Shown in pieces: positions 17,914-63,108 of a stretch of 64,000 nt of DNA. The stretch lies in contig JAYPRP010000002.1 in NCBI GenBank assembly GCA_038132575.1, positions 6,802-70,801 of the forward strand, given 5' to 3'. The position numbers and the translations under genes were made by a program. The notes under the pieces were generated by a model. The model worked only from the letters and a program-made list of their open reading frames with translations. It did not search any database and was not told where the DNA came from. Every line of letters begins with the position of its first letter. The first letter of the stretch is position 1. Origin of the DNA: Rhodospirillaceae bacterium (GTDB taxonomy: Bacteria > Pseudomonadota > Alphaproteobacteria > UBA6615).

Positions 17914-19320
17914 ATGGCCGACCCAAGCCCCGACTTCTCCGCGATCCCCTCGCTCGACCGCCTGTTGCAGGCGCCGTCGGTCGCCACCCTCGTGGAATCG
18001 CACGGACGCGCCGCGACGACGGCGGCACTGCGCGCGGCGCTCGACGGCGCCCGCGGGACGATCGCGGCGGGCGACGCAGCTGACCTCTCGGAAGATGCCT
18101 TCGCGCGAACGGCGGCGGCGCAACTCGCGCGCGCGGCGGCCCCCGGGCTGCGCCGCGTCTTCAACCTGACCGGCACCGTGCTGCACACAAACCTGGGCCG
18201 GGCGCCGCTGGCCGAAGCGGCAATCGAGGCGATGGCCGAGGCCGCGCGCGGCGCGAGCAACCTGGAATACGATCTCGACAGCGGCAAGCGCGGCGACCGG
18301 GACACCCATGTCGAGGAACTGCTCTGTGAGCTGACAGGTGCCGAGGCCGCGACAGTCGTGAACAACAATGCGGGCGCCGTCCTGCTGCTCCTGAACGCGC
18401 TGGCGCTGCGCAAGGAAGTGCCCGTCTCGCGCGGCGAGCTGGTCGAGATCGGCGGCGCCTTCCGGATTCCCGACATCATGGCGCGGGCGGGCGCCAAGCT
18501 GGTCGAGGTCGGTACCACCAACCGGACCCACGCCCGGGACTTCGAGGGTGCGATCGGCGCCAGGACCGCGCTGGTGATGAAGGTCCACACGTCGAACTAC
18601 ACGGTCCAGGGCTTCACCGCCGACGTGCCCGAGGGCGATCTCGCCGGGATCGCCCACGCGGCGGACATTCCCTTCGCCGTCGATCTGGGTGCCGGGGCGC
18701 TGGTGGATCTCGAGCGCTGGGGCCTGCCCCACGAGCCCACCCCGCGCGAGACGCTGGCGGCGGGCGCGGACATCGTCACCTTCTCCGGCGACAAGCTGCT
18801 GGGCGGCCCCCAGGCGGGGCTGATCGTCGGGCGCGCGGACCTGATCGCGCGGCTCAAGAAGAACCCTCTCAAGCGTGCGCTCCGCTGCGACAAGGCAACC
18901 CTCGCCGCGCTGGCCGCGACCCTGATGCTCTACCGCGATCCCGACCGGCTGGCTGAACGGCTGCCCACGCTCAAGCTCCTGGCGCGTGGGGCGGACGATA
19001 TTCGCGCCGTCGCGGGATCGCTGCGCGACGCGGTTGGCGAGGCCGTCGGCGACGCGTTCACGGTCTCGGTCGAGGACTGCGCCGGACAGATCGGATCGGG
19101 CGCGCTCCCGGTCGAGAGCCTGGGCAGCGCCGCACTGGTCATCCGGCCGGCCGCGGTGCGCGGCCAGGGCGCGAAACTCAAACGGCTGGCGGCATCGCTC
19201 CGCGCCTTGCCCGTGCCGGTCATCGGGCGCGTGCATGACGACGCGCTCTGGCTCGACCTGCGCTGCCTCGACGATACCGACGGCTTCTGCGCCCAGCTCC
19301 AAAATCTGCACACATCATGA
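17914..19320 (+). CDS. selA: L-seryl-tRNA(Sec) selenium transferase (selenocysteine synthase), 468 aa.
   Basis: [15 protein letters not shown] and the PLP-lysine motif [13 protein letters not shown]. Size and order match selA; it is followed by selB with a 4-nt overlap. Confidence 0.9.
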
Positions 19321-21227
19321 TCATCGCGACCGCGGGCCATATCGATCACGGCAAGACCCTGCTCGTGAAATCGCTGACGGGCGTCGACGCCGACCGCCTG
19401 CCGGAAGAGAAAAAGCGCGGCATGACGCTCGATCTCGGCTTTGCGTACACCGACCTCGAGAACGGCGCGCGGCTCGGCTTCATCGACGTGCCGGGCCATG
19501 AACGCCTGGTCCACAACATGCTGGCGGGCGTGACCGGCATCGACTGCGCGCTGCTCGTGGTCGCGGCGGACGACGGCCCCATGCCCCAGACGCTCGAACA
19601 CCTGGCGATCCTCGATATCCTGGGCGTCTCGCGCGGGATGGTCGCGCTCACGAAGATCGACCGGGTGGACGCATCCCGCGTGGCCGAGGTCCGGGACGAG
19701 ATCGAACTGCTGATCTGTGAAACTTCGCTGGCGGGCGCGACGGTGTTCCCGGTCTCGGCGGTCACCGGCGACGGGATCGAGGCGCTGCGGGAAGAAATCG
19801 CCGACATGGCCGCGGTCACCGAGGCGCGCTCCGGCGCAGGGCATTTCCGCCTCGCCGTCGACCGGGTGTTCACCGTCGCAGGCGCCGGCCTGGTGGCGAC
19901 CGGCACCGCCTTCGCCGGCACGGTCTCCCGCGAGGACCGGCTGTGGATCGCGGGGCACGACGTGCAGGCGCGCGTCCGCGGCATTCACGCCAACAACACG
20001 GACAGCGAGACAGGCCGGGCCGGAGACCGGCTGGCGCTCAACCTCGCCGGGCTCGACAAGGACGACATCGCGCGCGGCGACTGGTTGGTGGCCGATTCCG
20101 GGCTCGGGCTCTACCGCAAGCTGGATGTCCGGCTGAACGTGGTCGCCGATGCCAAGAGGCCGCTGCGGCACTGGACCCCCGTCCATGTGCATCTCGGCGC
20201 GCGGAACGTCACCGGCCGGGTGGCGATCCTCGGCGCCGACAGCGCCGCGCCGGGGAGCAACGTACCGGCGCAGCTCGTGCTGGACGCGCCCGTCGGCGCG
20301 TGCGTGCGCGACCGGTTCGTCATTCGCGACCAGTCGGCACAGGTCACGCTCGGCGGCGGGCACGTAGTGGATCTGCATCCGCCGCGCCGGGGGCGCGCCA
20401 GGCCGGAACGCCTCGAGCTGCTCGACGCCCTCGACACGCCCGACGCCGAGACGGCACTTGCCAGCGCACTGGCCCGGTCCCCGACCGGCCTGTCGATCGC
20501 CGACTTCGCGGCGGAGCGCAACCTGACCGAGGCCGAGATGTCCGCCGCTCTTTCGGCGACCGGCGCGGCGTCGGCGGGAACCGGCGCGGATGCGCTTGCG
20601 ATCGCGCAAGACGCCTGGGCCGCGCGGCGCGAGGAGTTGCTCGCCGCCCTCGACCAGTTCCACACGCGCTACCCCGACCGGCTGGGGCCCGCCGCGGCAC
20701 AGCTGCGCAAGAGCGTCGGCCGGTTCATCCCGGAGACCCTGTTCGACGCGGTCAGCGCGAAGCTGGTCGCCGACGGCACCATGTCGAGCGACGGGATGCT
20801 GCTGCACCGCCCGGATCACCGGCCGGGCCTGACGGGCGACGACGCGAAGCGCTGGGAAGCGCTGCAGCCCTATCTGAACGAGACGCCGGCAAGCCCGCCG
20901 GTGGTGCATGACCTGGCCCAGGCCGCCGGCCTCCCGGTCAACGGCGTCGGCAAGACGCTGCGCCAGGCGGTGCGCATGGGGCTCGCCGTGCAGATTGCCG
21001 AGAACCGGTTCTTCCTGCCCGCAGCGCTGCGCGCGCACGCACGGACCTTCGAAGCGATGATCGCCGCCGACGGCAGCGTCGGTGTGTCGCCATTCCGCAA
21101 GGAAGCGGGAATCGGACGGAATCTCGCCGTCGAGTTACTGGAGTATTTCGATCGGGTCGGCCTGTCACAGCGCGACGGGAATGTTCGTCACCAGCTCCGG
21201 CCGGTCGAAGAAGTGTTCGGCGCCTAA
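19317..21227 (+). CDS. selB: Selenocysteine-specific translation elongation factor, 636 aa.
   Basis: N-terminus [22 protein letters not shown] with G-domain motifs DVPGHE and TKID. A long C-terminal extension is consistent with SECIS-binding winged-helix domains. Confidence 0.9.
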
Positions 21228-25623: not shown

Positions 25624-25719
25624 GGAGGAGGACCGTTCCCCGGTGGGGCGCCCGGTCTTCAAAACCGGTGAGGGGCGTTAGACGTGCCTGGTGGGTTCGA
25701 CTCCCACCCTCTTCCGCCA
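25624..25719 (+). tRNA. selC: tRNA-Sec (anticodon UCA), 96 nt including encoded CCA.
   Basis: 8-bp acceptor stem GGAGGAGG/CCTCTTCC (one G-U pair). 6-bp D-stem. Anticodon stem CCGGT/ACCGG with loop CTTCAAA (anticodon TCA). Long variable arm. 5-bp T-stem GTGGG/CCCAC with TTCGACT loop. Discriminator G, then CCA. The 8/5 architecture is diagnostic of bacterial tRNA-Sec. Confidence 0.85.
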
Positions 25720-25812
25720 GTTTTCACGCACCCAAGCGCGATCCGGGAAAGACACCCGCCGCCCGGTGTTGATGTTCGCGCGGATGCGAAGCCCGGCAGT
25801 CCCTGAGAGCGC

Positions 25813-28035
25813 ATGACCCCGACCGTCCCGATCACACATGATATTGTCCTGATCGGCGGCGGCCATAGCCATGTGGCCGTCCTCAAGCGGTTCGGCATGA
25901 AGCCCGAGCCCGGGATCCGGCTGACTCTGATCACCCGGGACCTGCTGACACCCTATTCGGGCATGATCCCCGGCTACATCGCCAACCATTACAGCGCGGC
26001 CGAGGCGCATATTGACCTGCGCCCCCTCGCCGCCTTCGCCAACGCCCGGATCATCCACGCGGCGGCGACGGGGCTGGATCTGCAAAACAACTATGTCCAG
26101 GTCGCCGGCCGCCCGTCCGTGGCGTTCGATCTCGTCTCCGTCGACACCGGCTCGACCCCGTCAACGGCAGACATCGTCGGCGCCGGACACGGGTTGCCGG
26201 TGAAACCCATCGACCGCTTCCTTGAAACGTATCACCGCCTGACCGACGAGATCAGGAACCATCGTGGCCCGTTCCACATCACCATTGCGGGTGGCGGCGC
26301 GGGCGGGGTCGAGCTCGCGCTCGCGCTGCGCCACCGGCTGGGGCTGGCGGCACCGGGCCTCGGTAAGCGCCCCGGCGATCTCCGCTTCGCCATCGTCGAG
26401 GCCGCCGATACGCTCTTGCCCGGCTACAACAGGGCGGCCCGCCGCAAGCTCGCCCGCGCGCTCGCGGACCGCGGGATCGCCGTGCAAACCGGCGCGGGCG
26501 TGACACAGGTCGGGCCGGATACGGTGACCCTCGCCGACGGCGGCGTGCTTGACAGTGACAGAACGATCCTGGTGACCTCGGCCGGACCGCCCCACTGGCT
26601 CGCGGACAGCGATGTGGCGCGCGACGACCGCGGCTTCGTGCGGGTCGATGCGACGCTCCGCTCGCCGTCGCATCCGCAACTCTTCGCCACCGGCGACGCC
26701 GCCTCGATGGACGGGCACGCGCTGCCGAAGGCGGGGGTCTATGCCGTCCGCCAGGGGCCTTACCTGGCCGAGAACCTGGGCCGCGCGGCGCGGGGCCGGC
26801 CGCTGCGCAGCTACCGGCCGCAGGGCCAGACCCTGGCGCTCATCACCACGGGCGACAGGTTCGCCATCGCCGCACGCGGCTCGCTCTCCGTTCAGGGCGC
26901 CTGGGTGTGGCGCTGGAAGGACTGGATCGACCGACGCTGGATGCGCAAATACCAGGAGCTGCCGGACATGGATGCGGGCGACGGCGCGGACGGCGACGCA
27001 ACGCTCGAGGCCATGCGCTGTGGGGGCTGCGGCGCCAAGGTGCCGGCCCCGGTGCTCCGCCGCGCGCTCGACCGTTTGCCGCCGCAGGAAATCGAGGGCC
27101 TCGACCAGGGGCTGGATTCACCCGACGACGCAGCGGTCCTCACCCCGCCGCCGGGCAAGGCACTAATCCAGACCGTCGACCAGTTCCGCGCCTTCATCGA
27201 CGATCCCTATCTCTTCGGACGCATCGCGGCCAACCACTGCCTGGGCGATATCTTCGCAATGGGCGCCGAGGCCCATTCAGCACTGGCCGCGGTGATGCTG
27301 CCCCACGGCGAGGACGCGAAGACGTCCGACGATCTCTACCAGCTGCTCGCGGGTGCGACCGAGACCCTTGCAGAGGCCGGCGCGGTTCTCGCCGGCGGCC
27401 ACACCGGCGAGGGTGCGGAGATGGCCTTCGGCCTGACGGTCAACGGCTATGCCGATCCGGACACCATCCTGCGCAAGGGCGGGCTCGCGCCCGGCGACGC
27501 CCTAATCCTCACCAAGCCGCTCGGCACGGGCGTCCTGTTCGCCGCCGACATGCGTGCCAAGGCGGGCGGCGACCATGTGACGGCGGCGTTCGCCTCCATG
27601 CAGCGCTCGCTCGCGCTGGCGATCCCGGTGGTCCGGGACCATGGCGCGCACGCCGCCACCGATGTCACCGGCTTCGGGCTGGCGGGGCACCTGCTGGAGA
27701 TGCTCAACGCATCGGGCGTCGATGCCGAGCTCGAGCTCAACGCGCTGCCGGTCCTGCCGGGCATCGCCGCGCTGGTGGCCGCCGGCCATGAGAGCACGCT
27801 CCGGCCCGGCAACGAGGAGGCGGTCGGCAACGCCGCGCCCGTCTCAGCGCACCCGAACTTCCCGCTGCTGTTCGATCCGCAGACCGCGGGCGGGCTTCTC
27901 GTTGGCGTCCCGAGCGAACGGGCCGAGGCCTGCCTTGACGCGCTCCGCGCCGGCCCCGCGCCGGACGCGACGATTATCGGGCAAGTCACTGCAAGGATGG
28001 GCGACGTCTGCGTGCTGCGCTACGCCGAAACCTGA
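25813..28035 (+). CDS. selD: Bifunctional protein: N-terminal FAD-dependent pyridine-nucleotide-disulfide (NADH dehydrogenase-like) oxidoreductase domain fused to selenide, water dikinase, 740 aa. Cys-type active site.
   Basis: N-terminus DIVLIGGGHSHVAVLK (Rossmann FAD motif) and a second GGGAGGVELA nucleotide-binding motif. C-terminal half has SelD hallmarks: MRCGGCGAKV (catalytic Cys, not Sec) and an AIR-synthase-like fold. Confidence 0.85.
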   Translation: MTPTVPITHDIVLIGGGHSHVAVLKRFGMKPEPGIRLTLITRDLLTPYSGMIPGYIANHYSAAEAHIDLRPLAAFANARIIHAAATGLDLQNNYVQVAGRPSVAFDLVSVDTGSTPSTADIVGAGHGLPVKPIDRFLETYHRLTDEIRNHRGPFHITIAGGGAGGVELALALRHRLGLAAPGLGKRPGDLRFAIVEAADTLLPGYNRAARRKLARALADRGIAVQTGAGVTQVGPDTVTLADGGVLDSDRTILVTSAGPPHWLADSDVARDDRGFVRVDATLRSPSHPQLFATGDAASMDGHALPKAGVYAVRQGPYLAENLGRAARGRPLRSYRPQGQTLALITTGDRFAIAARGSLSVQGAWVWRWKDWIDRRWMRKYQELPDMDAGDGADGDATLEAMRCGGCGAKVPAPVLRRALDRLPPQEIEGLDQGLDSPDDAAVLTPPPGKALIQTVDQFRAFIDDPYLFGRIAANHCLGDIFAMGAEAHSALAAVMLPHGEDAKTSDDLYQLLAGATETLAEAGAVLAGGHTGEGAEMAFGLTVNGYADPDTILRKGGLAPGDALILTKPLGTGVLFAADMRAKAGGDHVTAAFASMQRSLALAIPVVRDHGAHAATDVTGFGLAGHLLEMLNASGVDAELELNALPVLPGIAALVAAGHESTLRPGNEEAVGNAAPVSAHPNFPLLFDPQTAGGLLVGVPSERAEACLDALRAGPAPDATIIGQVTARMGDVCVLRYAET

Positions 28036-55779: not shown

Positions 55780-56646
55780 ATGATCGAAGTTGTGGGTTTT
55801 CGCTACTGTCGGCTGGGAACGGCCGATCTTGAGGAAACGGTCAAATTCGCCACCGACATGATCGGGCTGGAGGACGTGGGGCGCGAGAACGGTGCCGCCT
55901 ACATGCGCGGCGACGACCGCGACCACAATATCTGCTACTTCCAGGGCGATCCCACCGACCACACGCTGGGCCTGGAGCTCGCGGACTTCGACGCGCTCGA
56001 CGCGGCGGAAAGCAGCCTGTCCGCGGCCGGCCTCGAGGTGTATCGCGGCAGCGACGAGGAGGCCGCTGCGCGCCGGTGCATGGGCTACATCAACTTCAAG
56101 GACCCGAGCGGAAACTCCATCGACCTGACGGTACGGCCGTTCGCCTCCGGACGGCGCTACTTCCCCGGGCGTGACGCCGGCATCGACGAGTTCAGCCATA
56201 TCGGGCTCGCGGTGACCGACCCGCGCGAGGCCGAGAAGTTCTGGTCCGAGATGTTCAACTTCCGGACCAGCGACTGGATCGGCTGGTCCGCCCTCATGAC
56301 CTTCGATGCGGTGCATCACCGCTTCGCCCTGTTCCCGTCGAACAAGCCCGGCATCCAGCACATCAACTTCCAGGTCCACGAGACCGACGACGTGATGCGC
56401 TCGAACTACTTCCTGCGCGATCACCAGGTGCGCATCCAGGCCGGGCCGGGGCGGCATTCGCTTTCCGGTGCACGGTTCCTCTACTTCTACGGCCCGGACG
56501 ACATGATCTACGAATACTCCTGCGGCGTGAGGATGGTCGACGACAGCTGGCGCGCCCGCCAGTTCCCCGTCAACGACGCCTCGTTCTGCGCCTGGGGCTC
56601 GCGCCCCGACCTGAGCGTTCTCGAAGGCGAGAATGCCGCGGAGTGA
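55780..56646 (+). CDS. Type I extradiol ring-cleavage dioxygenase (VOC superfamily, catechol 2,3-dioxygenase-like), 288 aa.
   Basis: Two VOC modules. The second contains FSHIGLAV, HHRFALF and E-containing metal ligands. Confidence 0.7.
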   Translation: MIEVVGFRYCRLGTADLEETVKFATDMIGLEDVGRENGAAYMRGDDRDHNICYFQGDPTDHTLGLELADFDALDAAESSLSAAGLEVYRGSDEEAAARRCMGYINFKDPSGNSIDLTVRPFASGRRYFPGRDAGIDEFSHIGLAVTDPREAEKFWSEMFNFRTSDWIGWSALMTFDAVHHRFALFPSNKPGIQHINFQVHETDDVMRSNYFLRDHQVRIQAGPGRHSLSGARFLYFYGPDDMIYEYSCGVRMVDDSWRARQFPVNDASFCAWGSRPDLSVLEGENAAE

Positions 56647-56675: not shown

Positions 56676-57530
56676 ATGATTGAGATCGTCGATATCCGCT
56701 ACTGCCGCCTCGGCACCGCCGACCTCAAATCGGCGGTCGACTTCGCGACGTCCATGATCGGGCTCGAGGAGGTCGCCCGCGCCGACGGACAGGTCTATCT
56801 CCGCGGCGACGACCGGGATCACAACATCTGCTACTTCGCTGGTGACCCGGCCGACCACACCTTCGGGCTGGAGGTGGAAACGTCCGAAGCGCTCGACGCG
56901 GCAGCGACCACGCTCGAGGCGGCGGGCGTCGCGGTACGCCGCGGCAGCGACGACGAAGCGGCCGCGCGCCGGGTCATGGGGTTCATCAACTTCCGCGACC
57001 CCACGGGCAACTCGGTCGACCTGGTCGTCCGCCCGCACCATTCCGGGCGCCGGTATTTTCCGTCGCGCGACGCGGGTATCACCGAGTTCAGTCACATCGG
57101 GATCAAGACGGACAACCCCGCGCGCGACGAGAAATTCTGGAGCGGCCTGTTCAACATCCAGGCGAACGACCGGATCGGCGATGCGGCGCTAATGTCCTTC
57201 GACGAGGTGCACCACCGCATCGCACTGTTCCCGACCGACCATGCCGGCATCCAACACATCAACTTCCAGGTCGAGAGCATCGACGACATCATGCGCTCGC
57301 ACTATTTCCTGACCGAGCGCCAGGTCCAGATCAGGTTCGGGCCCGGGCGGCACCCGACGTCGGGTGCCATGTTCCTCTACTACGAGGGCCCCGACGGGAT
57401 GACCTACGAGTATTCGTCCGGCGTACGGAACGTGGACGAGAGCTGGCGACCACGCCAATTGCCCTTCAAGGACGAGTCCTTCTGCATGTGGGGCGCGCGC
57501 CCGAACATTCCCGAATTTTCCGACGGCTGA
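56676..57530 (+). CDS. Type I extradiol dioxygenase, tandem paralog, 284 aa.
   Basis: About 60% identical by eye to the previous gene (MIEIVDIRYCRLGTADL vs MIEVVGFRYCRLGTADL). Confidence 0.7.
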   Translation: MIEIVDIRYCRLGTADLKSAVDFATSMIGLEEVARADGQVYLRGDDRDHNICYFAGDPADHTFGLEVETSEALDAAATTLEAAGVAVRRGSDDEAAARRVMGFINFRDPTGNSVDLVVRPHHSGRRYFPSRDAGITEFSHIGIKTDNPARDEKFWSGLFNIQANDRIGDAALMSFDEVHHRIALFPTDHAGIQHINFQVESIDDIMRSHYFLTERQVQIRFGPGRHPTSGAMFLYYEGPDGMTYEYSSGVRNVDESWRPRQLPFKDESFCMWGARPNIPEFSDG

Positions 57531-57564
57531 GCCGGCCATACCGGCGCTGGAAGGACATCCCGCC

Positions 57565-58395
57565 ATGAGCGATCCACGCCCCGGCAAAAGCACCGTGATT
57601 CCACCGAAGGCATACGAGAATCCGGACTTCCTGCACAGCCGCGAGGCGCGGGCGATCCGTATCCTGTCAGAGTATCAGGAGCCGCTGTCCCGCTTCGAGC
57701 ATTACGACATCGACGACACGATCGTGTTCATGGGTTCCGCGCGCATCAAGTCGGCCGAGGACGCCGCCGCCATGGCCGCAGCGGCGGCACGCGGCGAAGC
57801 CGATCCGAGGGAGGCCGAACGTGCGGAACGCATGTCCGCTTACTACGAAGCAGCCCGCAAACTCGCCTTCCGGCTGACCGAATGGTCGAAGGGGCTGGGC
57901 GAGGACAAGCGCCGCTTCGTCGTCTGCACCGGGGGTGGACCCGGCATCATGGAGGCCGCCAACAGGGGGGCGTCCGAGGCCAAGGGCATGAACATCGGGC
58001 TGACGATCTCGTTGCCCTTCGAGGACTTCGAGAACCCCTATGTCAGCCGCGAGCTGAACGTGATGTTCCACTACTTCTTCATGCGGAAGTTCTGGTTCAC
58101 CTACCCCGCGAAGGCCGTCGTCCTGTTCCCGGGCGGCTTCGGCACCCTCGACGAACTGTTCGAGATCCTGACCCTGGTACAGACCCAGAAGATCAAGAAG
58201 CGCCTGCCCGTTGTACTGTTCGGCCACGAGTTCTGGGATCGCGTGATCGACATGGATGCGCTGATCGAGTTCGGCACGATCAGCCCCGGTGACATCGACC
58301 TTTTCCACCGGACCGATTCCGTTGACGACGCCTACGATCACATCACGCGCGAGCTTGCCGCCCACGGGCTCGACGAACCCGGCGTTGCGCTCTAG
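57565..58395 (+). CDS. LOG family protein (TIGR00730 Rossmann-fold nucleotide-binding / cytokinin riboside 5'-monophosphate phosphoribohydrolase-like), 276 aa.
   Basis: FPGGFGTLDELFE (PGGxGTxxE) signature and GGGPGIMEAANRGA. Confidence 0.75.
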   Translation: MSDPRPGKSTVIPPKAYENPDFLHSREARAIRILSEYQEPLSRFEHYDIDDTIVFMGSARIKSAEDAAAMAAAAARGEADPREAERAERMSAYYEAARKLAFRLTEWSKGLGEDKRRFVVCTGGGPGIMEAANRGASEAKGMNIGLTISLPFEDFENPYVSRELNVMFHYFFMRKFWFTYPAKAVVLFPGGFGTLDELFEILTLVQTQKIKKRLPVVLFGHEFWDRVIDMDALIEFGTISPGDIDLFHRTDSVDDAYDHITRELAAHGLDEPGVAL

Positions 58396-58472
58396 CGCGC
58401 ACGGCGGACGGTTGCTCTTTCCCGCGCCGGGCATCATATGTTGGACAACATGCCCGCACACAGGTGAGCCAG

Positions 58473-58691
58473 ATGAGCTTCCGGATCGAATACTGCAAAC
58501 TCTGAAACTACGAGCCGCGTGCGCTCCGTGCGAGGGACCTGCTCGAACAGCTTGGCGAAACCGTCGAGATCGCGCCCGGGCGAACCGGATCGTTCGAAAT
58601 CACGAAGGACGGCGCCCTTCTCTTCTCGAAGCTCGACACCGCGCGTTTCCCCGATGATGACGAGGTTCGGGCTCTCGCCGGCCCGGCCTGA
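58473..58691 (+). CDS. Candidate SelW/Rdx-family selenoprotein, 72 codons, CKLU motif with in-frame TGA at 58503..58505. Absent from the ORF track.
   Basis: AGGTGA RBS 6 nt before ATG 58473. Read by eye: MSFRIEYCKL-TGA-NYEPRALRARDLLEQLGETVEIAPGRTGSFEITKDGALLFSKLDTARFPDDDEVRALAGPA-stop. Matches the Rdx-fold pattern I-E-Y-C-x-x-U...RA..L...FE-like...SK...G-FP. Confidence 0.55.
58509..58545 (+). other. GC-rich region with potential stem-loops (CGAGC...GCUCG outer pairing) 6-40 nt after the UGA of the SelW-like gene. Candidate SECIS.
   Basis: By-eye pairing only. Confidence 0.2.
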
Positions 58692-58705
58692 CGGCCCTGC
58701 AAACG

Positions 58706-59305
58706 ATGACCCATGACCCCTACTTTCCCGCCGGCGAGCCGCGCCGCCTGATCGTCGGCATTTCCGGCGCCACCGGGATCGCCTACGGCATCCGCCTGCT
58801 CGAGGCGCTGCGCGAATGCGAGGTGGAGAGCCACCTGGTCGTCACCCGCCCCGGGCTGATGACCCTCGGTTACGAGACCGACCTCTCGCGTGATCAGCTG
58901 TACGACCTCGCCGACGTCGTCTATGCCGAGAACGACGTGGGGGCGGCCATCTCATCGGGCTCGATGATCACGCTGGGCATGATCGTCGCGCCCTGCGCGG
59001 TGAAATCGGCTGCCGAGATCGCATCGGGCGCGACCCAGACCCTGCTGACCCGCGCGGCCGACGTGACGCTGAAGGAACGCCGGCGGCTGGTGCTGATGGT
59101 TCGCGAGAGCCCGCTGCACACAGGCCATCTGCGTACACTGACGGAAGCCTCGGAGATCGGCGCCATCGTCATGCCGCCCATGCCCGCCTTCTATCCCCGG
59201 CCCGAGACCATCGAGGACATGGTGGACCATACGGTCGGCCGGGCGCTCGATCTGTTCGGGATCGAACACGACCTGCTGAAACGCTGGACCGGCAGGCCTG
59301 ACTAG
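58706..59305 (+). CDS. ubiX: UbiX/Pad1 family flavin prenyltransferase, 199 aa.
   Basis: RLIVGISGATGIAYGIRLLE and downstream conserved segments. No UbiD partner in the window. Confidence 0.85.
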   Translation: MTHDPYFPAGEPRRLIVGISGATGIAYGIRLLEALRECEVESHLVVTRPGLMTLGYETDLSRDQLYDLADVVYAENDVGAAISSGSMITLGMIVAPCAVKSAAEIASGATQTLLTRAADVTLKERRRLVLMVRESPLHTGHLRTLTEASEIGAIVMPPMPAFYPRPETIEDMVDHTVGRALDLFGIEHDLLKRWTGRPD

Positions 59306-59355
59306 AAAGCCGTCTCCGTGATCCGCGCAGCCGCGCGCTGCGTACCGATTTTGAC

Positions 59356-60069
59356 ATGCCGGGACATCCGAAATTCCGCGCCACGCTGTTCGCTTGGTTC
59401 ACAGCACTCCTAATCGCCGTGCCGCCGGCCGCCGCAAACCCGACGGACGGAACGTTGCGCTTCGACGTCGAGCTCGACGGCCGAAACATCGGTGCACACG
59501 CGCTGACGTTCGAAACGCGCCCCGACGGCACCCTGGCTGTCGCGATCGAGATTGACCTGGAGATCACGTTCGGACCGTTCATCGTGTTCGCGTACACGCA
59601 CCGCAACCGAACGTCCTGGCAGGGCGGGCGGTTGGTGGCAATGAACAGCGAAACCGACGACAACGGCGAGCAGCACTGGGTCAAGGCACGCGCCGGGAAC
59701 GACGTCCTGTCCGTCAGCTCGGACCAGGATCCGGGCTCGAAGCTGTCCGCGGCGATGCTGCCGACCACCTACTGGATGGCCTCGACCGTCCGCCAGACCC
59801 GGATGATCAATTCCCAGACCGGCGAACTGCTCGAGGTGAGAACCCGGAAGGTCGGACGGAAAACCGTCCCCGGCCCCGGCGGCGCAATTCCGGCGACACA
59901 TTACCGCCTCGACGGCGATCTCGAGATCGATCTCTGGTACGACGACGCCGGCGTTCTCGTCGGGCTCGCCTTCGTTGCCCGCGGCGCACAGGTCACCTAC
60001 CGCCTGCGCGAGCGCACGGGCGAGATTCCCGTCAGCATGGCCGGCAACATCATGAACGACCGGCGCTGA
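59356..60069 (+). CDS. Secreted hypothetical protein, 237 aa.
   Basis: Signal peptide MPGHPKFRATLFAWFTALLIAVPPAAA. Beta-rich composition. Confidence 0.5.
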   Translation: MPGHPKFRATLFAWFTALLIAVPPAAANPTDGTLRFDVELDGRNIGAHALTFETRPDGTLAVAIEIDLEITFGPFIVFAYTHRNRTSWQGGRLVAMNSETDDNGEQHWVKARAGNDVLSVSSDQDPGSKLSAAMLPTTYWMASTVRQTRMINSQTGELLEVRTRKVGRKTVPGPGGAIPATHYRLDGDLEIDLWYDDAGVLVGLAFVARGAQVTYRLRERTGEIPVSMAGNIMNDRR

Positions 60070-61857: not shown

Positions 61858-63108
61858 TCAGTCGAGGATCGCAGCAAACCCCAGGCCGACGACGGAGTTG
61901 TACCATTCGATAATTAGCCGGCGCTCGTCATCCTCCATGAAGGACACGTTCGCCGGCGGCATCGCGCGGGTATGGCCGGCCTGGAGGTAGATCGCGCGCG
62001 CATGGGCGGCGATCTGGCGGTCGGTTTCGAGCTTCACACCCTTCGGCGCCTTGACGATGCCGTCCCATGCCGTCACCGAAGCGTGGCACATGGCGCAGCG
62101 CCCCTGCACGATGTTGCGCACCTCGCCGAAGTGCGGCGATGCGACGAAGCGCTGCTGCGACGGGGTCAGCTCGGTGCTTTCCTCGGCCTCGGATTCGAAC
62201 AGCGGCGAGAAGGCCGAAAGCCACATGACGATGATGAAGATCATCACCGTCGCGCCCCAGGTCCAAAGCGGGCTGCCCTTGCGCGCATGCACCGAGTTGA
62301 AATAGTGGCGGATCGTGACGCCCATCAGGAAGATCAGGCTGGCGATGACCCAGTTGAACTCGGTCGCGAACGCCTGCGGGTAATGATTCGACAGCATCAG
62401 GAACACGACCGGCAGGGTCAGGTAGTTGTTGTGGGTCGAACGTTGCTTGGCGAGAATCCCGTGCTTCGCCTCGGGTTTGCGGCCCGCCTTGAGGTCGGCG
62501 ACCACGATGCGCTGGCTCGGGATGATGGTCAGGAAGACGTTCGCCGACATGATGGTCGCGGTGAACGCGCCGAGATGCAGGAATGCCGCACGCGGCGTGA
62601 ACACCTGCGTGTAGCCCCACGCCATGATCACCAGCAGCACGTAGAGCAGCAGCATCAGGGTCGTGTTGTTACGCCCGAGCGGGCTCCTGCAGATGAGGTC
62701 GTAGGCGAACCAGCCGAACACCAGCGAACCGATCGAGATCGCGATGCCCGCGATCGGAGAGATGTCGAGGACGGCGGGATCGACGAGGTAGAGTTCCGCA
62801 CCGGCGTAGTAGACCAGCGTCATCAGGATGAACCCCGACATCCAGGCCCAGTAGGACTCCCACTTGAACCAGGTCAGGTGCTCCGGCAGCGCAGCCGGGG
62901 CCACCAGGTATTTCTGGATGTGATAGAAGCCGCCGCCATGGACCTGCCATTCCTCCCCGTAGGCGCCCTCGGGCAGGTCCGGGACCTTGCGCAGCCCGAG
63001 GTCGAGCGCGATGAAGTAGAAGGACGAGCCGATCCACGCGATGCCCGCGATGACGTGAAACCATCGCGCCGCGAAGGACAGCCACTCCATGACCAGTGCG
63101 GTTTCCAT
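61858..63108 (-). CDS. Urate hydroxylase PuuD-like membrane protein with C-terminal c-type cytochrome domain, 416 aa.
   Basis: Multiple TM helices. A C-terminal CAMCH haem-binding motif follows a soluble extension. Organisation matches the PuuD family. Confidence 0.65.
   Translation of the reverse strand: METALVMEWLSFAARWFHVIAGIAWIGSSFYFIALDLGLRKVPDLPEGAYGEEWQVHGGGFYHIQKYLVAPAALPEHLTWFKWESYWAWMSGFILMTLVYYAGAELYLVDPAVLDISPIAGIAISIGSLVFGWFAYDLICRSPLGRNNTTLMLLLYVLLVIMAWGYTQVFTPRAAFLHLGAFTATIMSANVFLTIIPSQRIVVADLKAGRKPEAKHGILAKQRSTHNNYLTLPVVFLMLSNHYPQAFATEFNWVIASLIFLMGVTIRHYFNSVHARKGSPLWTWGATVMIFIIVMWLSAFSPLFESEAEESTELTPSQQRFVASPHFGEVRNIVQGRCAMCHASVTAWDGIVKAPKGVKLETDRQIAAHARAIYLQAGHTRAMPPANVSFMEDDERRLIIEWYNSVVGLGFAAILD

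What the first reader, a model, noticed from the sequence alone, without database searches (positions are those of the whole stretch)
58473..58691. Unannotated 72-codon SelW/Rdx-like gene (CKLU) between LOG and ubiX, invisible to the ORF track because the UGA falls at codon 11
A strong RBS (AGGTGA) precedes ATG 58473. The frame reads MSFRIEYCKL-UGA-NYEPRALRARDLL...SFEITKDGALLFSKLDTARFPDDDE and ends at TGA 58689..58691, 14 nt before ubiX. This is the conserved pattern of bacterial SelW-like (Rdx-fold) selenoproteins (IEYCxxU...RA..L...FEV...SK...G.FP). Because the segment after the UGA has no Met, ORF finders return only noise here. It is a fourth Sec-protein candidate in the window.
Basis: partly seen in the sequence, partly recalled or inferred. 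Interest (0 to 1): 0.75.

Follow-up and report, generated by a model that had tools for sequence, protein, structure and literature searches.

The report
SelW-like selenoprotein gene upstream of ubiX
This is a real but ordinary 72-codon gene for a small SelW-like redox protein whose active-site selenocysteine is written as a UGA "stop" codon, which is why gene finders miss it; the family is already known as the commonest selenoprotein in marine bacteria.

Summary
ATG 58473, in-frame TGA 58503-58505 (codon 11) and stop TGA 58689-58691 give a 72-residue protein. With U read as C it passes the curated thresholds of Pfam Rdx (56.2 bits against 22.6) and TIGR02174 CXXU_selWTH (52.7 against 34.2).

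All 64 relatives recovered from marine alphaproteobacterial MAGs and metagenomes carry TGA at the same CxxU position, with the reading frame conserved on both sides. Distant relatives and solved structures have Cys there.

The roughly 40 nt after the UGA are almost invariant even at synonymous sites. They form a hairpin (58511-58545) with a five-base loop, CGUGC, and the upper stem covaries in divergent relatives. This fits a bacterial SECIS element.

selA, selB, tRNA-Sec and a SelD fusion lie in the same window, and TGA is otherwise the normal stop.

This is a new member of a well-known kind, since SelW-like is the most abundant marine bacterial selenoprotein family, so interest is low.

The one modest lead is a tight, clade-wide pairing with ubiX, 12-30 nt downstream. 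Its functional meaning is untested.

The parts
58462..58467 (+). Shine-Dalgarno-like AGGTGA, 5 nt before the start codon
   Evidence: Read directly. Purine-rich GG(A/T)G motifs sit at a similar distance in most orthologues.
58473..58691 (+). SelW-like (Rdx family) selenoprotein gene: 72 sense codons including Sec11, stop TGA
   Evidence: Translation. Pfam Rdx 56.2 bits and TIGR02174 52.7 bits, both above their curated cut-offs. The start ATG and the frame are conserved in 64 related loci.
58494..58505 (+). CKLU redox motif: Cys8 TGC at 58494-58496 and Sec11 TGA at 58503-58505
   Evidence: It aligns with CxxC of MIEN1 and Atu0228. TGA is at this codon in 65 of 65 sequences. It lies between strand 1 and helix 1 in the AF2 model of the 82%-identical orthologue.
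58506..58543 (+). Block of near-invariant nucleotides after the UGA (AACTACGAGCCGCGTGCGCTCCGTGCGAGGGACCTGCT) with suppressed synonymous variation
   Evidence: Alignment. Synonymous pairwise diversity is 0.11 in codons 12-23 against 0.49 elsewhere, Mann-Whitney p = 6e-6. For 4- and 6-fold codons only it is 0.12 against 0.61, p = 2e-5.
58511..58545 (+). Predicted bacterial SECIS hairpin. Lower stem 58511-58515 pairs with 58541-58545. Upper stem 58522-58526 pairs with 58532-58536, with a G.G mismatch at 58523/58535. Apical loop CGUGC lies at 58527-58531, with G58528 and U58529 conserved.
   Evidence: It is the only fold stable in all 22 orthologues (-6.5 to -12.4 kcal/mol). On 26 diverse sequences it is 79% paired, 7 pairs change on both sides, and the covariation score is 0.212 against 0.102 for shuffles, with 0 of 500 shuffles reaching it. 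Slid controls give 31-48% paired. Rival apical hairpins fail.
58706..59305 (+). ubiX (flavin prenyltransferase), 14 nt downstream on the same strand; probable operon partner
   Evidence: NF004685 at 252.9 bits and TIGR00421 at 231 bits. No terminator-like site lies between the genes. ubiX lies 12-30 nt downstream in all 37 loci of the close subclade that have enough downstream DNA.
17914..19320 (+). selA, L-seryl-tRNA(Sec) selenium transferase
   Evidence: TIGR00474 at 587.8 bits, cut-off 267.9.
19317..21227 (+). selB, Sec-specific elongation factor, the protein expected to bind the SECIS
   Evidence: TIGR00475 at 457.7 bits, cut-off 242.
25624..25719 (+). selC, tRNA-Sec with anticodon UCA
   Evidence: ARAGORN; Rfam RF01852 at 71.2 bits, gathering score 47.
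25813..28035 (+). Fusion of a pyridine-nucleotide-disulfide oxidoreductase with SelD (selenophosphate synthetase)
   Evidence: TIGR03169 at 445.5 bits (cut-off 310) and TIGR00476 selD at 291 bits (cut-off 125).

Best explanation
Window 58473-58691 (+) encodes a 72-residue SelW-like (Rdx-fold) selenoprotein. Translation starts at ATG 58473. At UGA 58503-58505 the hairpin formed by nt 58511-58545 of the mRNA recruits SelB carrying GTP and Sec-tRNA(Sec). SelB, tRNA-Sec, SelA and SelD are all encoded in this window, and Sec is inserted as residue 11. The result is a Cys8-x-x-Sec11 redox centre at the N-terminus of helix 1 of a thioredoxin-like beta-alpha-beta-beta-beta-alpha fold. The second TGA (58689-58691) has no such hairpin and terminates translation. 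The protein most likely acts as a small thiol/selenol oxidoreductase cycling through a selenenylsulfide; this step is inferred from the family motif and is not shown here. It is probably co-transcribed with ubiX. What is shown: family membership, conservation of the UGA and both flanks, the RNA element, and the presence of the machinery. What is inferred: actual Sec insertion, the SelB-hairpin contact, redox activity and the operon.
For: Profile matches exceed curated thresholds. PDB sequence hits are all Rdx proteins, with the UGA aligned to the second Cys of CxxC. The AF2 model of orthologue P0001 (82% identical) has pLDDT 92.3 and an E-H-E-E-E-H order with the CxxU between strand 1 and helix 1. 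Its best structural matches are bacterial SelW-related crystal structures 2OJL, 2FA8, 2P0G and 2OBK at TM 0.85-0.88. All 21 genome loci and 43 metagenome loci have TGA at this codon, with the amino-acid sequence conserved and synonymous variation present on both sides. Cys forms occur only among distant relatives. Synonymous variation collapses for 12 codons after the UGA. The hairpin is supported by energy in all orthologues and by covariation; for example CGCUC/GAGGG becomes CUGCC/GGCAG or CCGCC/GGCGG in the same register, with G26-U27 kept in the loop. selA, selB, selC and selD are in the window. TGA is the ordinary stop of 6 of the 10 well-supported genes checked, so the genome does not reassign UGA. 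[quoted passage not shown]
Against: There is no expression, proteomic or 75Se evidence. The hairpin alone is not more stable than shuffled sequence (z = -0.77). In most close orthologues its upper stem carries a G.G mismatch. RNAalifold on the close set chose a different 3-bp apical stem. The covariation rests largely on a few divergent sequences that may share ancestry, and I chose the structure after seeing the sequences. No Rfam family matches. No promoter-like site was found. The biochemical function of bacterial Rdx proteins is unknown.
Confidence: 0.92

Rival explanations
1. The UGA is a true stop. The locus is a dead or truncated Rdx gene, or a 10-codon leader peptide, and the downstream similarity is a relic.
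For: Gene callers leave the region empty. TGA is the usual stop codon in this window.
Against: 65 of 65 sequences spanning 32-97% protein identity keep the TGA and the same frame on both sides, with amino-acid conservation plus synonymous drift. That pattern indicates purifying selection on a translated product. No relative in the clade has a sense codon there, which a decaying pseudogene would not maintain. The Sec machinery is encoded in the same window.
Confidence: 0.02
2. The UGA is read through, but not as Sec. For example, near-cognate Trp or Cys insertion, or SelB-independent suppression, would give a CxxW or CxxC protein.
For: JGI and many metagenome calls write W at this position. Sequence alone cannot tell which amino acid is inserted.
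Against: The W calls are code-4-style translations of TGA, and the terminal TGA is also written as W. The position aligns with the catalytic Cys of CxxC in relatives, where Trp would abolish the redox centre. A dedicated hairpin with a conserved GU loop, together with selA/B/C/D, is what Sec decoding requires.
Confidence: 0.04
3. The invariant 40-nt block is not a SECIS. It is another overlapping element, such as a regulatory RNA or attenuator for ubiX, a protein-binding site, or an antisense ORF (58508-58834, minus strand).
For: No Rfam SECIS match. The single-sequence fold z-score is unremarkable. A 108-aa antisense ORF overlaps the region.
Against: The block starts directly after the UGA. 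The hairpin keeps its register relative to the UGA even in relatives that lack ubiX and have a different stem sequence (L067-L069, L072). In a 66.5% GC genome long antisense ORFs are expected by chance.
Confidence: 0.02

Closest known systems
Bacterial SelW-like selenoproteins (CxxU; Pfam Rdx PF10262, formerly PF05169; TIGR02174), described from Sargasso Sea and GOS metagenomes by Zhang, Gladyshev and colleagues
   Same: Size of about 70-80 aa, an N-terminal IEYCxxU motif, the Rdx thioredoxin-like fold, a SECIS hairpin immediately after the UGA, a marine bacterial host, and predominance of Sec over Cys forms.
   Different: Nothing essential differs. This is a particular alphaproteobacterial (Rhodospirillaceae-like MAG) subclade with an unusually invariant SECIS sequence and a fixed position directly upstream of ubiX.
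Cys-containing bacterial Rdx proteins with solved structures (Atu0228 2FA8, BpR68 2OJL, VcR75 2P0G, PA 2OKA, P. fluorescens 2OBK, SAV_2001 3DEX)
   Same: The same fold at TM 0.8-0.88 and rmsd 1.5-2.2 A, with the redox motif in the same location.
   Different: They carry CxxC rather than CxxU, are about 100-108 aa with extra termini, share only 21-28% identity, and have no recoding element.
Eukaryotic selenoprotein W (2NPB) and MIEN1/C17orf37 (2LJK)
   Same: Rdx family members. MIEN1 is the best PDB sequence hit (E 3e-7) and SelW also uses CxxU.
   Different: Eukaryotic SelW uses a 3'-UTR SECIS of a different type bound by SBP2, whereas here the element lies inside the coding sequence as in bacteria. 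Structural similarity is lower (TM 0.66-0.70).
E. coli fdhF SECIS, the archetypal bacterial SECIS (details from my own knowledge, not tested here)
   Same: A hairpin within the ORF directly 3' of the UGA, with a small apical loop displaying G-U. It is presumed to be bound by the C-terminal domain of SelB.
   Different: The sequence is unrelated. The loop GU lies at nt 26-27 from the U of UGA, rather than 23-24 as I recall for fdhF. No bulged U is evident, and the upper stem has a G.G mismatch in most members.

Membership tests
Rdx / SelT-SelW-SelH family (Pfam PF10262; NCBIfam TIGR02174) | Profile score above the curated family threshold over most of the domain | tested here: met
   PF10262 at 56.2 bits against 22.6, covering profile positions 3-69 of 74. 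TIGR02174 at 52.7 bits against 34.2. U was replaced by C for the search.
Rdx / SelT-SelW-SelH family (Pfam PF10262; NCBIfam TIGR02174) | CxxC or CxxU redox motif near the N-terminus, between strand 1 and helix 1 | tested here: met
   C8-K-L-U11. It aligns with CEPC of MIEN1 and CTQC of Atu0228. It lies between E2-7 and H14-26 in the model.
Rdx / SelT-SelW-SelH family (Pfam PF10262; NCBIfam TIGR02174) | Thioredoxin-like beta-alpha-beta-beta-beta-alpha fold | tested here: met
   The AF2 model of orthologue P0001 (82% identical; the window protein itself could not be submitted because of the UGA) has pLDDT 92.3. The top 23 Foldseek PDB hits are all Rdx proteins, TM up to 0.88.
NF041051 SelTWH_Campy equivalog | Score at or above the 88-bit equivalog cut-off | tested here: not met
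   73.4 bits. It is related to that equivalog group but not a member of it.
Bacterial selenoprotein gene (SelB-dependent UGA recoding) | In-frame UGA aligned with Cys in homologues, with coding conservation on both sides | tested here: met
   65 of 65 sequences have TGA with conserved flanks. Cys is at the aligned position in P0015, P0021, P0022, P0029 and in PDB relatives.
Bacterial selenoprotein gene (SelB-dependent UGA recoding) | SECIS hairpin immediately downstream of the UGA with a small apical loop containing G | tested here: met
   Hairpin at 58511-58545 with loop CGUGC 21 nt after the UGA. It is supported by energy in all orthologues, by covariation and by suppressed synonymous change. 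It was judged against the published description (PMC1088965). bSECISearch itself was not available, and Rfam has no matching model.
Bacterial selenoprotein gene (SelB-dependent UGA recoding) | Genome encodes selA, selB, selC and selD | tested here: met
   All four are in the same 64-kb window.
Bacterial selenoprotein gene (SelB-dependent UGA recoding) | Selenium is actually incorporated at the UGA | not testable with these tools
   This needs 75Se labelling or mass spectrometry.

The most novel reading that the evidence does not exclude
The SelW-like selenoprotein may be a dedicated redox partner of UbiX. It could supply or recycle reducing equivalents for reduced FMN, or protect or mature prenylated FMN. 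That would explain why the two genes stay 12-30 nt apart across a whole clade of marine alphaproteobacteria while the upstream neighbour changes. If true, it would give a bacterial Rdx protein its first defined physiological function.
Probability: 0.1. Interest if true: 0.5.

Novelty: new member of a known kind. Interest (0 to 1): 0.2.

Why it matters
The main value is in annotation. It adds one more correctly delimited selenoprotein gene, with its SECIS, to a marine alphaproteobacterial genome. It also shows that public MAG records for this clade either omit the gene, truncate it to 47-50 aa, or write Trp at the Sec position. The 65-sequence set, with an almost invariant SECIS plus a few covarying variants, could seed a covariance model for this SECIS type, which Rfam lacks. 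The conserved selW-like-ubiX pairing is a cheap, testable lead on the still unknown function of bacterial Rdx proteins.

Tried and rejected
- A single-sequence fold of the 68 nt after the UGA gave MFE -21.9 and z = -0.77, which is not informative alone.
- Rfam found no SECIS family at gathering threshold over the whole window or at E <= 10 over 58380-58760. It returned only two chance snoRNA-like hits.
- Covariation on the 22 close orthologues was not significant because the element is nearly invariant. RNAalifold proposed a different 3-bp apical stem.
- Rival hairpin A (UGCGC-UCC-GUGCG) is the MFE fold in most close orthologues. It collapses energetically in L020, L022, L024 and L027 and is no better than shuffles on the diverse set. 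Rival C is broken in half the sequences at its middle pair. My first test of hairpin A had an off-by-one error in the lower stem, so only its apical helix is usable.
- The promoter and terminator scan of 57400-59500 found nothing.
- A search for the SECIS core elsewhere in the window found only chance-level 3-mismatch hits.
- The word-indexed homology search found only 8 proteins, because callers miss or truncate this gene.
- A literature search for a UbiX and selenoprotein W link found no papers.
- The contexts of the divergent loci (PhyH, CoA-transferase, PIN) show no common neighbour.
- GTG 58464 was considered as an alternative in-frame start and rejected. It overlaps the SD-like motif, and the orthologues align from the ATG.

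Full report
**1. Observation**

AGGTGA lies at 58462-58467, followed by ATG at 58473. The frame reads MSFRIEYCKL, then TGA at 58503-58505, then NYEPRALRARDLLEQLGETVEIAPGRTGSFEITKDGALLFSKLDTARFPDDDEVRALAGPA, and ends at TGA 58689-58691.

ubiX starts at 58706, 14 nt later, and scores 252.9 bits on NF004685. The upstream gene 57565-58395 is a LOG/Lysine_decarbox-family protein.

After codon 1 the frame contains no ATG, GTG or TTG. The mechanical ORF list shows nothing in this frame even at a 20-aa minimum. That explains why gene callers miss it.

- On public contigs that carry the identical ubiX, the 310-nt gap is left empty.
- Orthologues appear in NCBI only as 47-50-aa fragments called 'Rdx family protein' or 'hypothetical protein' that begin after the UGA.
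- JGI calls them full length but writes W at the UGA. For P0001 the DNA is TGA, both internally and at the terminal stop.

**2. What the protein is**

With U replaced by C, the peptide passes the curated thresholds of two family models.

| Model | Score (bits) | Cut-off (bits) | Note |
|---|---|---|---|
| Pfam Rdx PF10262 | 56.2 | 22.6 | E 4e-15, nearly full-length |
| NCBIfam TIGR02174 CXXU_selWTH | 52.7 | 34.2 | |
| NF041051 (Campylobacter-type equivalog) | 73.4 | 88 | not reached |

All PDB sequence hits are Rdx proteins: MIEN1 2LJK, Atu0228 2FA8, mouse SelW 2NPB, 2P0G, 3DEX, 2OJL, 2OBK and 2OKA. The UGA aligns with the second Cys of their CxxC motif.

The window protein could not be submitted for folding because of its UGA, so I modelled orthologue P0001, which is 82% identical. 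The AlphaFold2 model has pLDDT 92.3. Its order of elements is strand, helix, three strands, a short four-residue helix (53-56) and a final helix, with the CxxU between strand 1 and helix 1. Its best structural matches are bacterial SelW-related crystal structures at TM 0.85-0.88.

**3. Is the UGA decoded?**

*Conservation.* A scan of one genome per species returned 21 orthologous loci, all from marine alphaproteobacterial or Rhodospirillaceae MAGs. A metagenome scan returned 43 more readable loci at 32-97% identity.

Every one has TGA at the same codon. I5, E6 and C8 upstream, and the frame downstream, are conserved while synonymous sites drift. L022 is the one exception, with Tyr in place of the first Cys.

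Exhaustive HMMER found Cys forms only among distant relatives: P0015, P0021, P0022 and P0029. It also found many further 'CxxW' calls, which are probably also UGA.

This agrees with the literature. [quoted passage not shown] It has few Cys homologues in Sec-using organisms (PMC1088965, PMC2398784, PMC1794560).

*RNA element.* The 38 nt after the UGA are nearly invariant at the nucleotide level in the close orthologues. Synonymous pairwise diversity falls sharply there:

| Codons compared | After UGA (codons 12-23) | Elsewhere | Mann-Whitney p |
|---|---|---|---|
| All conserved codons | 0.11 | 0.49 | 6e-6 |
| 4- and 6-fold codons only | 0.12 | 0.61 | 2e-5 |

Three alternative apical hairpins were possible. 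Only one is stable in all 22 orthologues, at -6.5 to -12.4 kcal/mol. The other two collapse in four sequences. The surviving structure is:

- lower stem 58511-58515 paired with 58541-58545
- upper stem 58522-58526 paired with 58532-58536
- apical loop CGUGC at 58527-58531

The close set was too invariant for covariation statistics. The divergent metagenome relatives keep the same register with different stems: CUGCC/GGCAG, CCGCC/GGCGG, or U-A replacing the G.G mismatch. They also keep G26-U27 in the loop.

On 26 diverse sequences the structure gives the following:

| Measure | Observed | Control |
|---|---|---|
| Cells paired | 79% | 0 of 500 shuffles reach it; slid registers give 31-48% |
| Pairs changed on both sides | 7 | 2 of 500 shuffles reach it |
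| Covariation score | 0.212 | 0.102 for shuffles |

Rival hairpin A is no better than shuffled sequence, and rival C is broken at its middle pair in half the sequences.

The caveats are these. The single-sequence z-score is unremarkable. I chose the structure after inspecting the sequences. The few covarying sequences may share ancestry. Rfam has no matching model.

*Machinery.* All four components of Sec decoding are in the same window:

- selA at 17914-19320, 588 bits
- selB at 19317-21227, 458 bits
- tRNA-Sec at 25624-25719
- an oxidoreductase-SelD fusion at 25813-28035

TGA terminates 6 of the 10 well-supported genes checked, including selA and this gene itself. UGA is therefore not reassigned genome-wide.

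**4. Mechanism**

The shown parts are family membership, the conserved UGA, the overlapping RNA element and the presence of the machinery.

The inferred parts are as follows. SelB with GTP and Sec-tRNA(Sec) binds the 58511-58545 hairpin and delivers Sec at codon 11. The Cys8-x-x-Sec11 centre cycles through a selenenylsulfide as a small oxidoreductase. The gene is co-transcribed with ubiX, given the 14-nt gap and the absence of a terminator-like site.

**5. Context**

In every locus of the subclade at 72% identity or more that has enough downstream DNA (37 loci), ubiX follows within 12-30 nt. The upstream neighbour varies: LOG lies 32-2426 nt away or is absent, and L029 has cytochrome c and a zeta toxin instead.

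More divergent subclades have other neighbours, such as PhyH and CoA-transferase. The pairing may therefore be inherited synteny rather than functional coupling. No paper links UbiX with SelW.

**6. Verdict**

This is a genuine but ordinary bacterial SelW-like selenoprotein gene, a new member of a well-described family, missed or mis-called by standard annotation.

Interest is low at 0.2. The most novel reading still open is a functional partnership with UbiX, at a probability of about 0.1.

Noticed in passing
window 17914-21227 and 25624-28035: A complete Sec-decoding set lies in one window. selA and selB overlap by 4 nt (ATGA). About 4.4 kb downstream lie tRNA-Sec and, immediately after it, a 740-aa fusion of a pyridine-nucleotide-disulfide oxidoreductase with SelD. 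The fusion scores above the cut-offs of TIGR03169 and TIGR00476 and below that of the 'fusion_not_SelD' model TIGR04369.
   Followed up: partly
L007-L019, L021-L023, L025, L031-L052, L062 (gene at about 3001 or 1501, ubiX 12-30 nt downstream): The selW-like and ubiX pair is invariant across the close subclade, although the upstream neighbour changes (LOG 32-2426 nt away or absent). The pairing is absent in more divergent subclades.
   Followed up: partly
L022:3001-3219: This orthologue reads FYKI-TGA, with Tyr in place of the resolving Cys of CxxU. Its close sisters L045 and L047 have FCKI. It may be a sequencing error or a YxxU variant.
   Followed up: no
L070:313-645 and L071:1492-1824: In these two metagenome copies the C-terminal half after 'EITRDGD' is replaced by unrelated sequence. 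They are probably disrupted or recombined genes that still retain the UGA and the SECIS.
   Followed up: no
L053:752-967: The SECIS loop reads CAUGC instead of CGUGC, so the otherwise conserved G26 is A and the codon changes from Arg to His. This is the only sequence lacking that loop G.
   Followed up: no
P0001, P0002 and many hits (for example P0009-P0014): Public metagenome protein calls write W at the Sec position, and sometimes W at the C-terminus too. This means TGA was translated as Trp, as under genetic code 4. I verified it for P0001 on L029. Such entries hide selenoproteins as 'CxxW' proteins.
   Followed up: partly
window 55780-56646 and 56676-57530: Two tandem paralogous glyoxalase/VOC-family genes, about 65% identical, lie upstream of LOG. 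The arrangement is conserved in many related MAGs.
   Followed up: no
window 61858-63108 (-) and downstream, as seen in L001: A purine-catabolism-like cluster lies just beyond the MFS gene. It includes a protein with the Urate_ox_N domain, a LysR regulator and a transthyretin-family HIU hydrolase.
   Followed up: no
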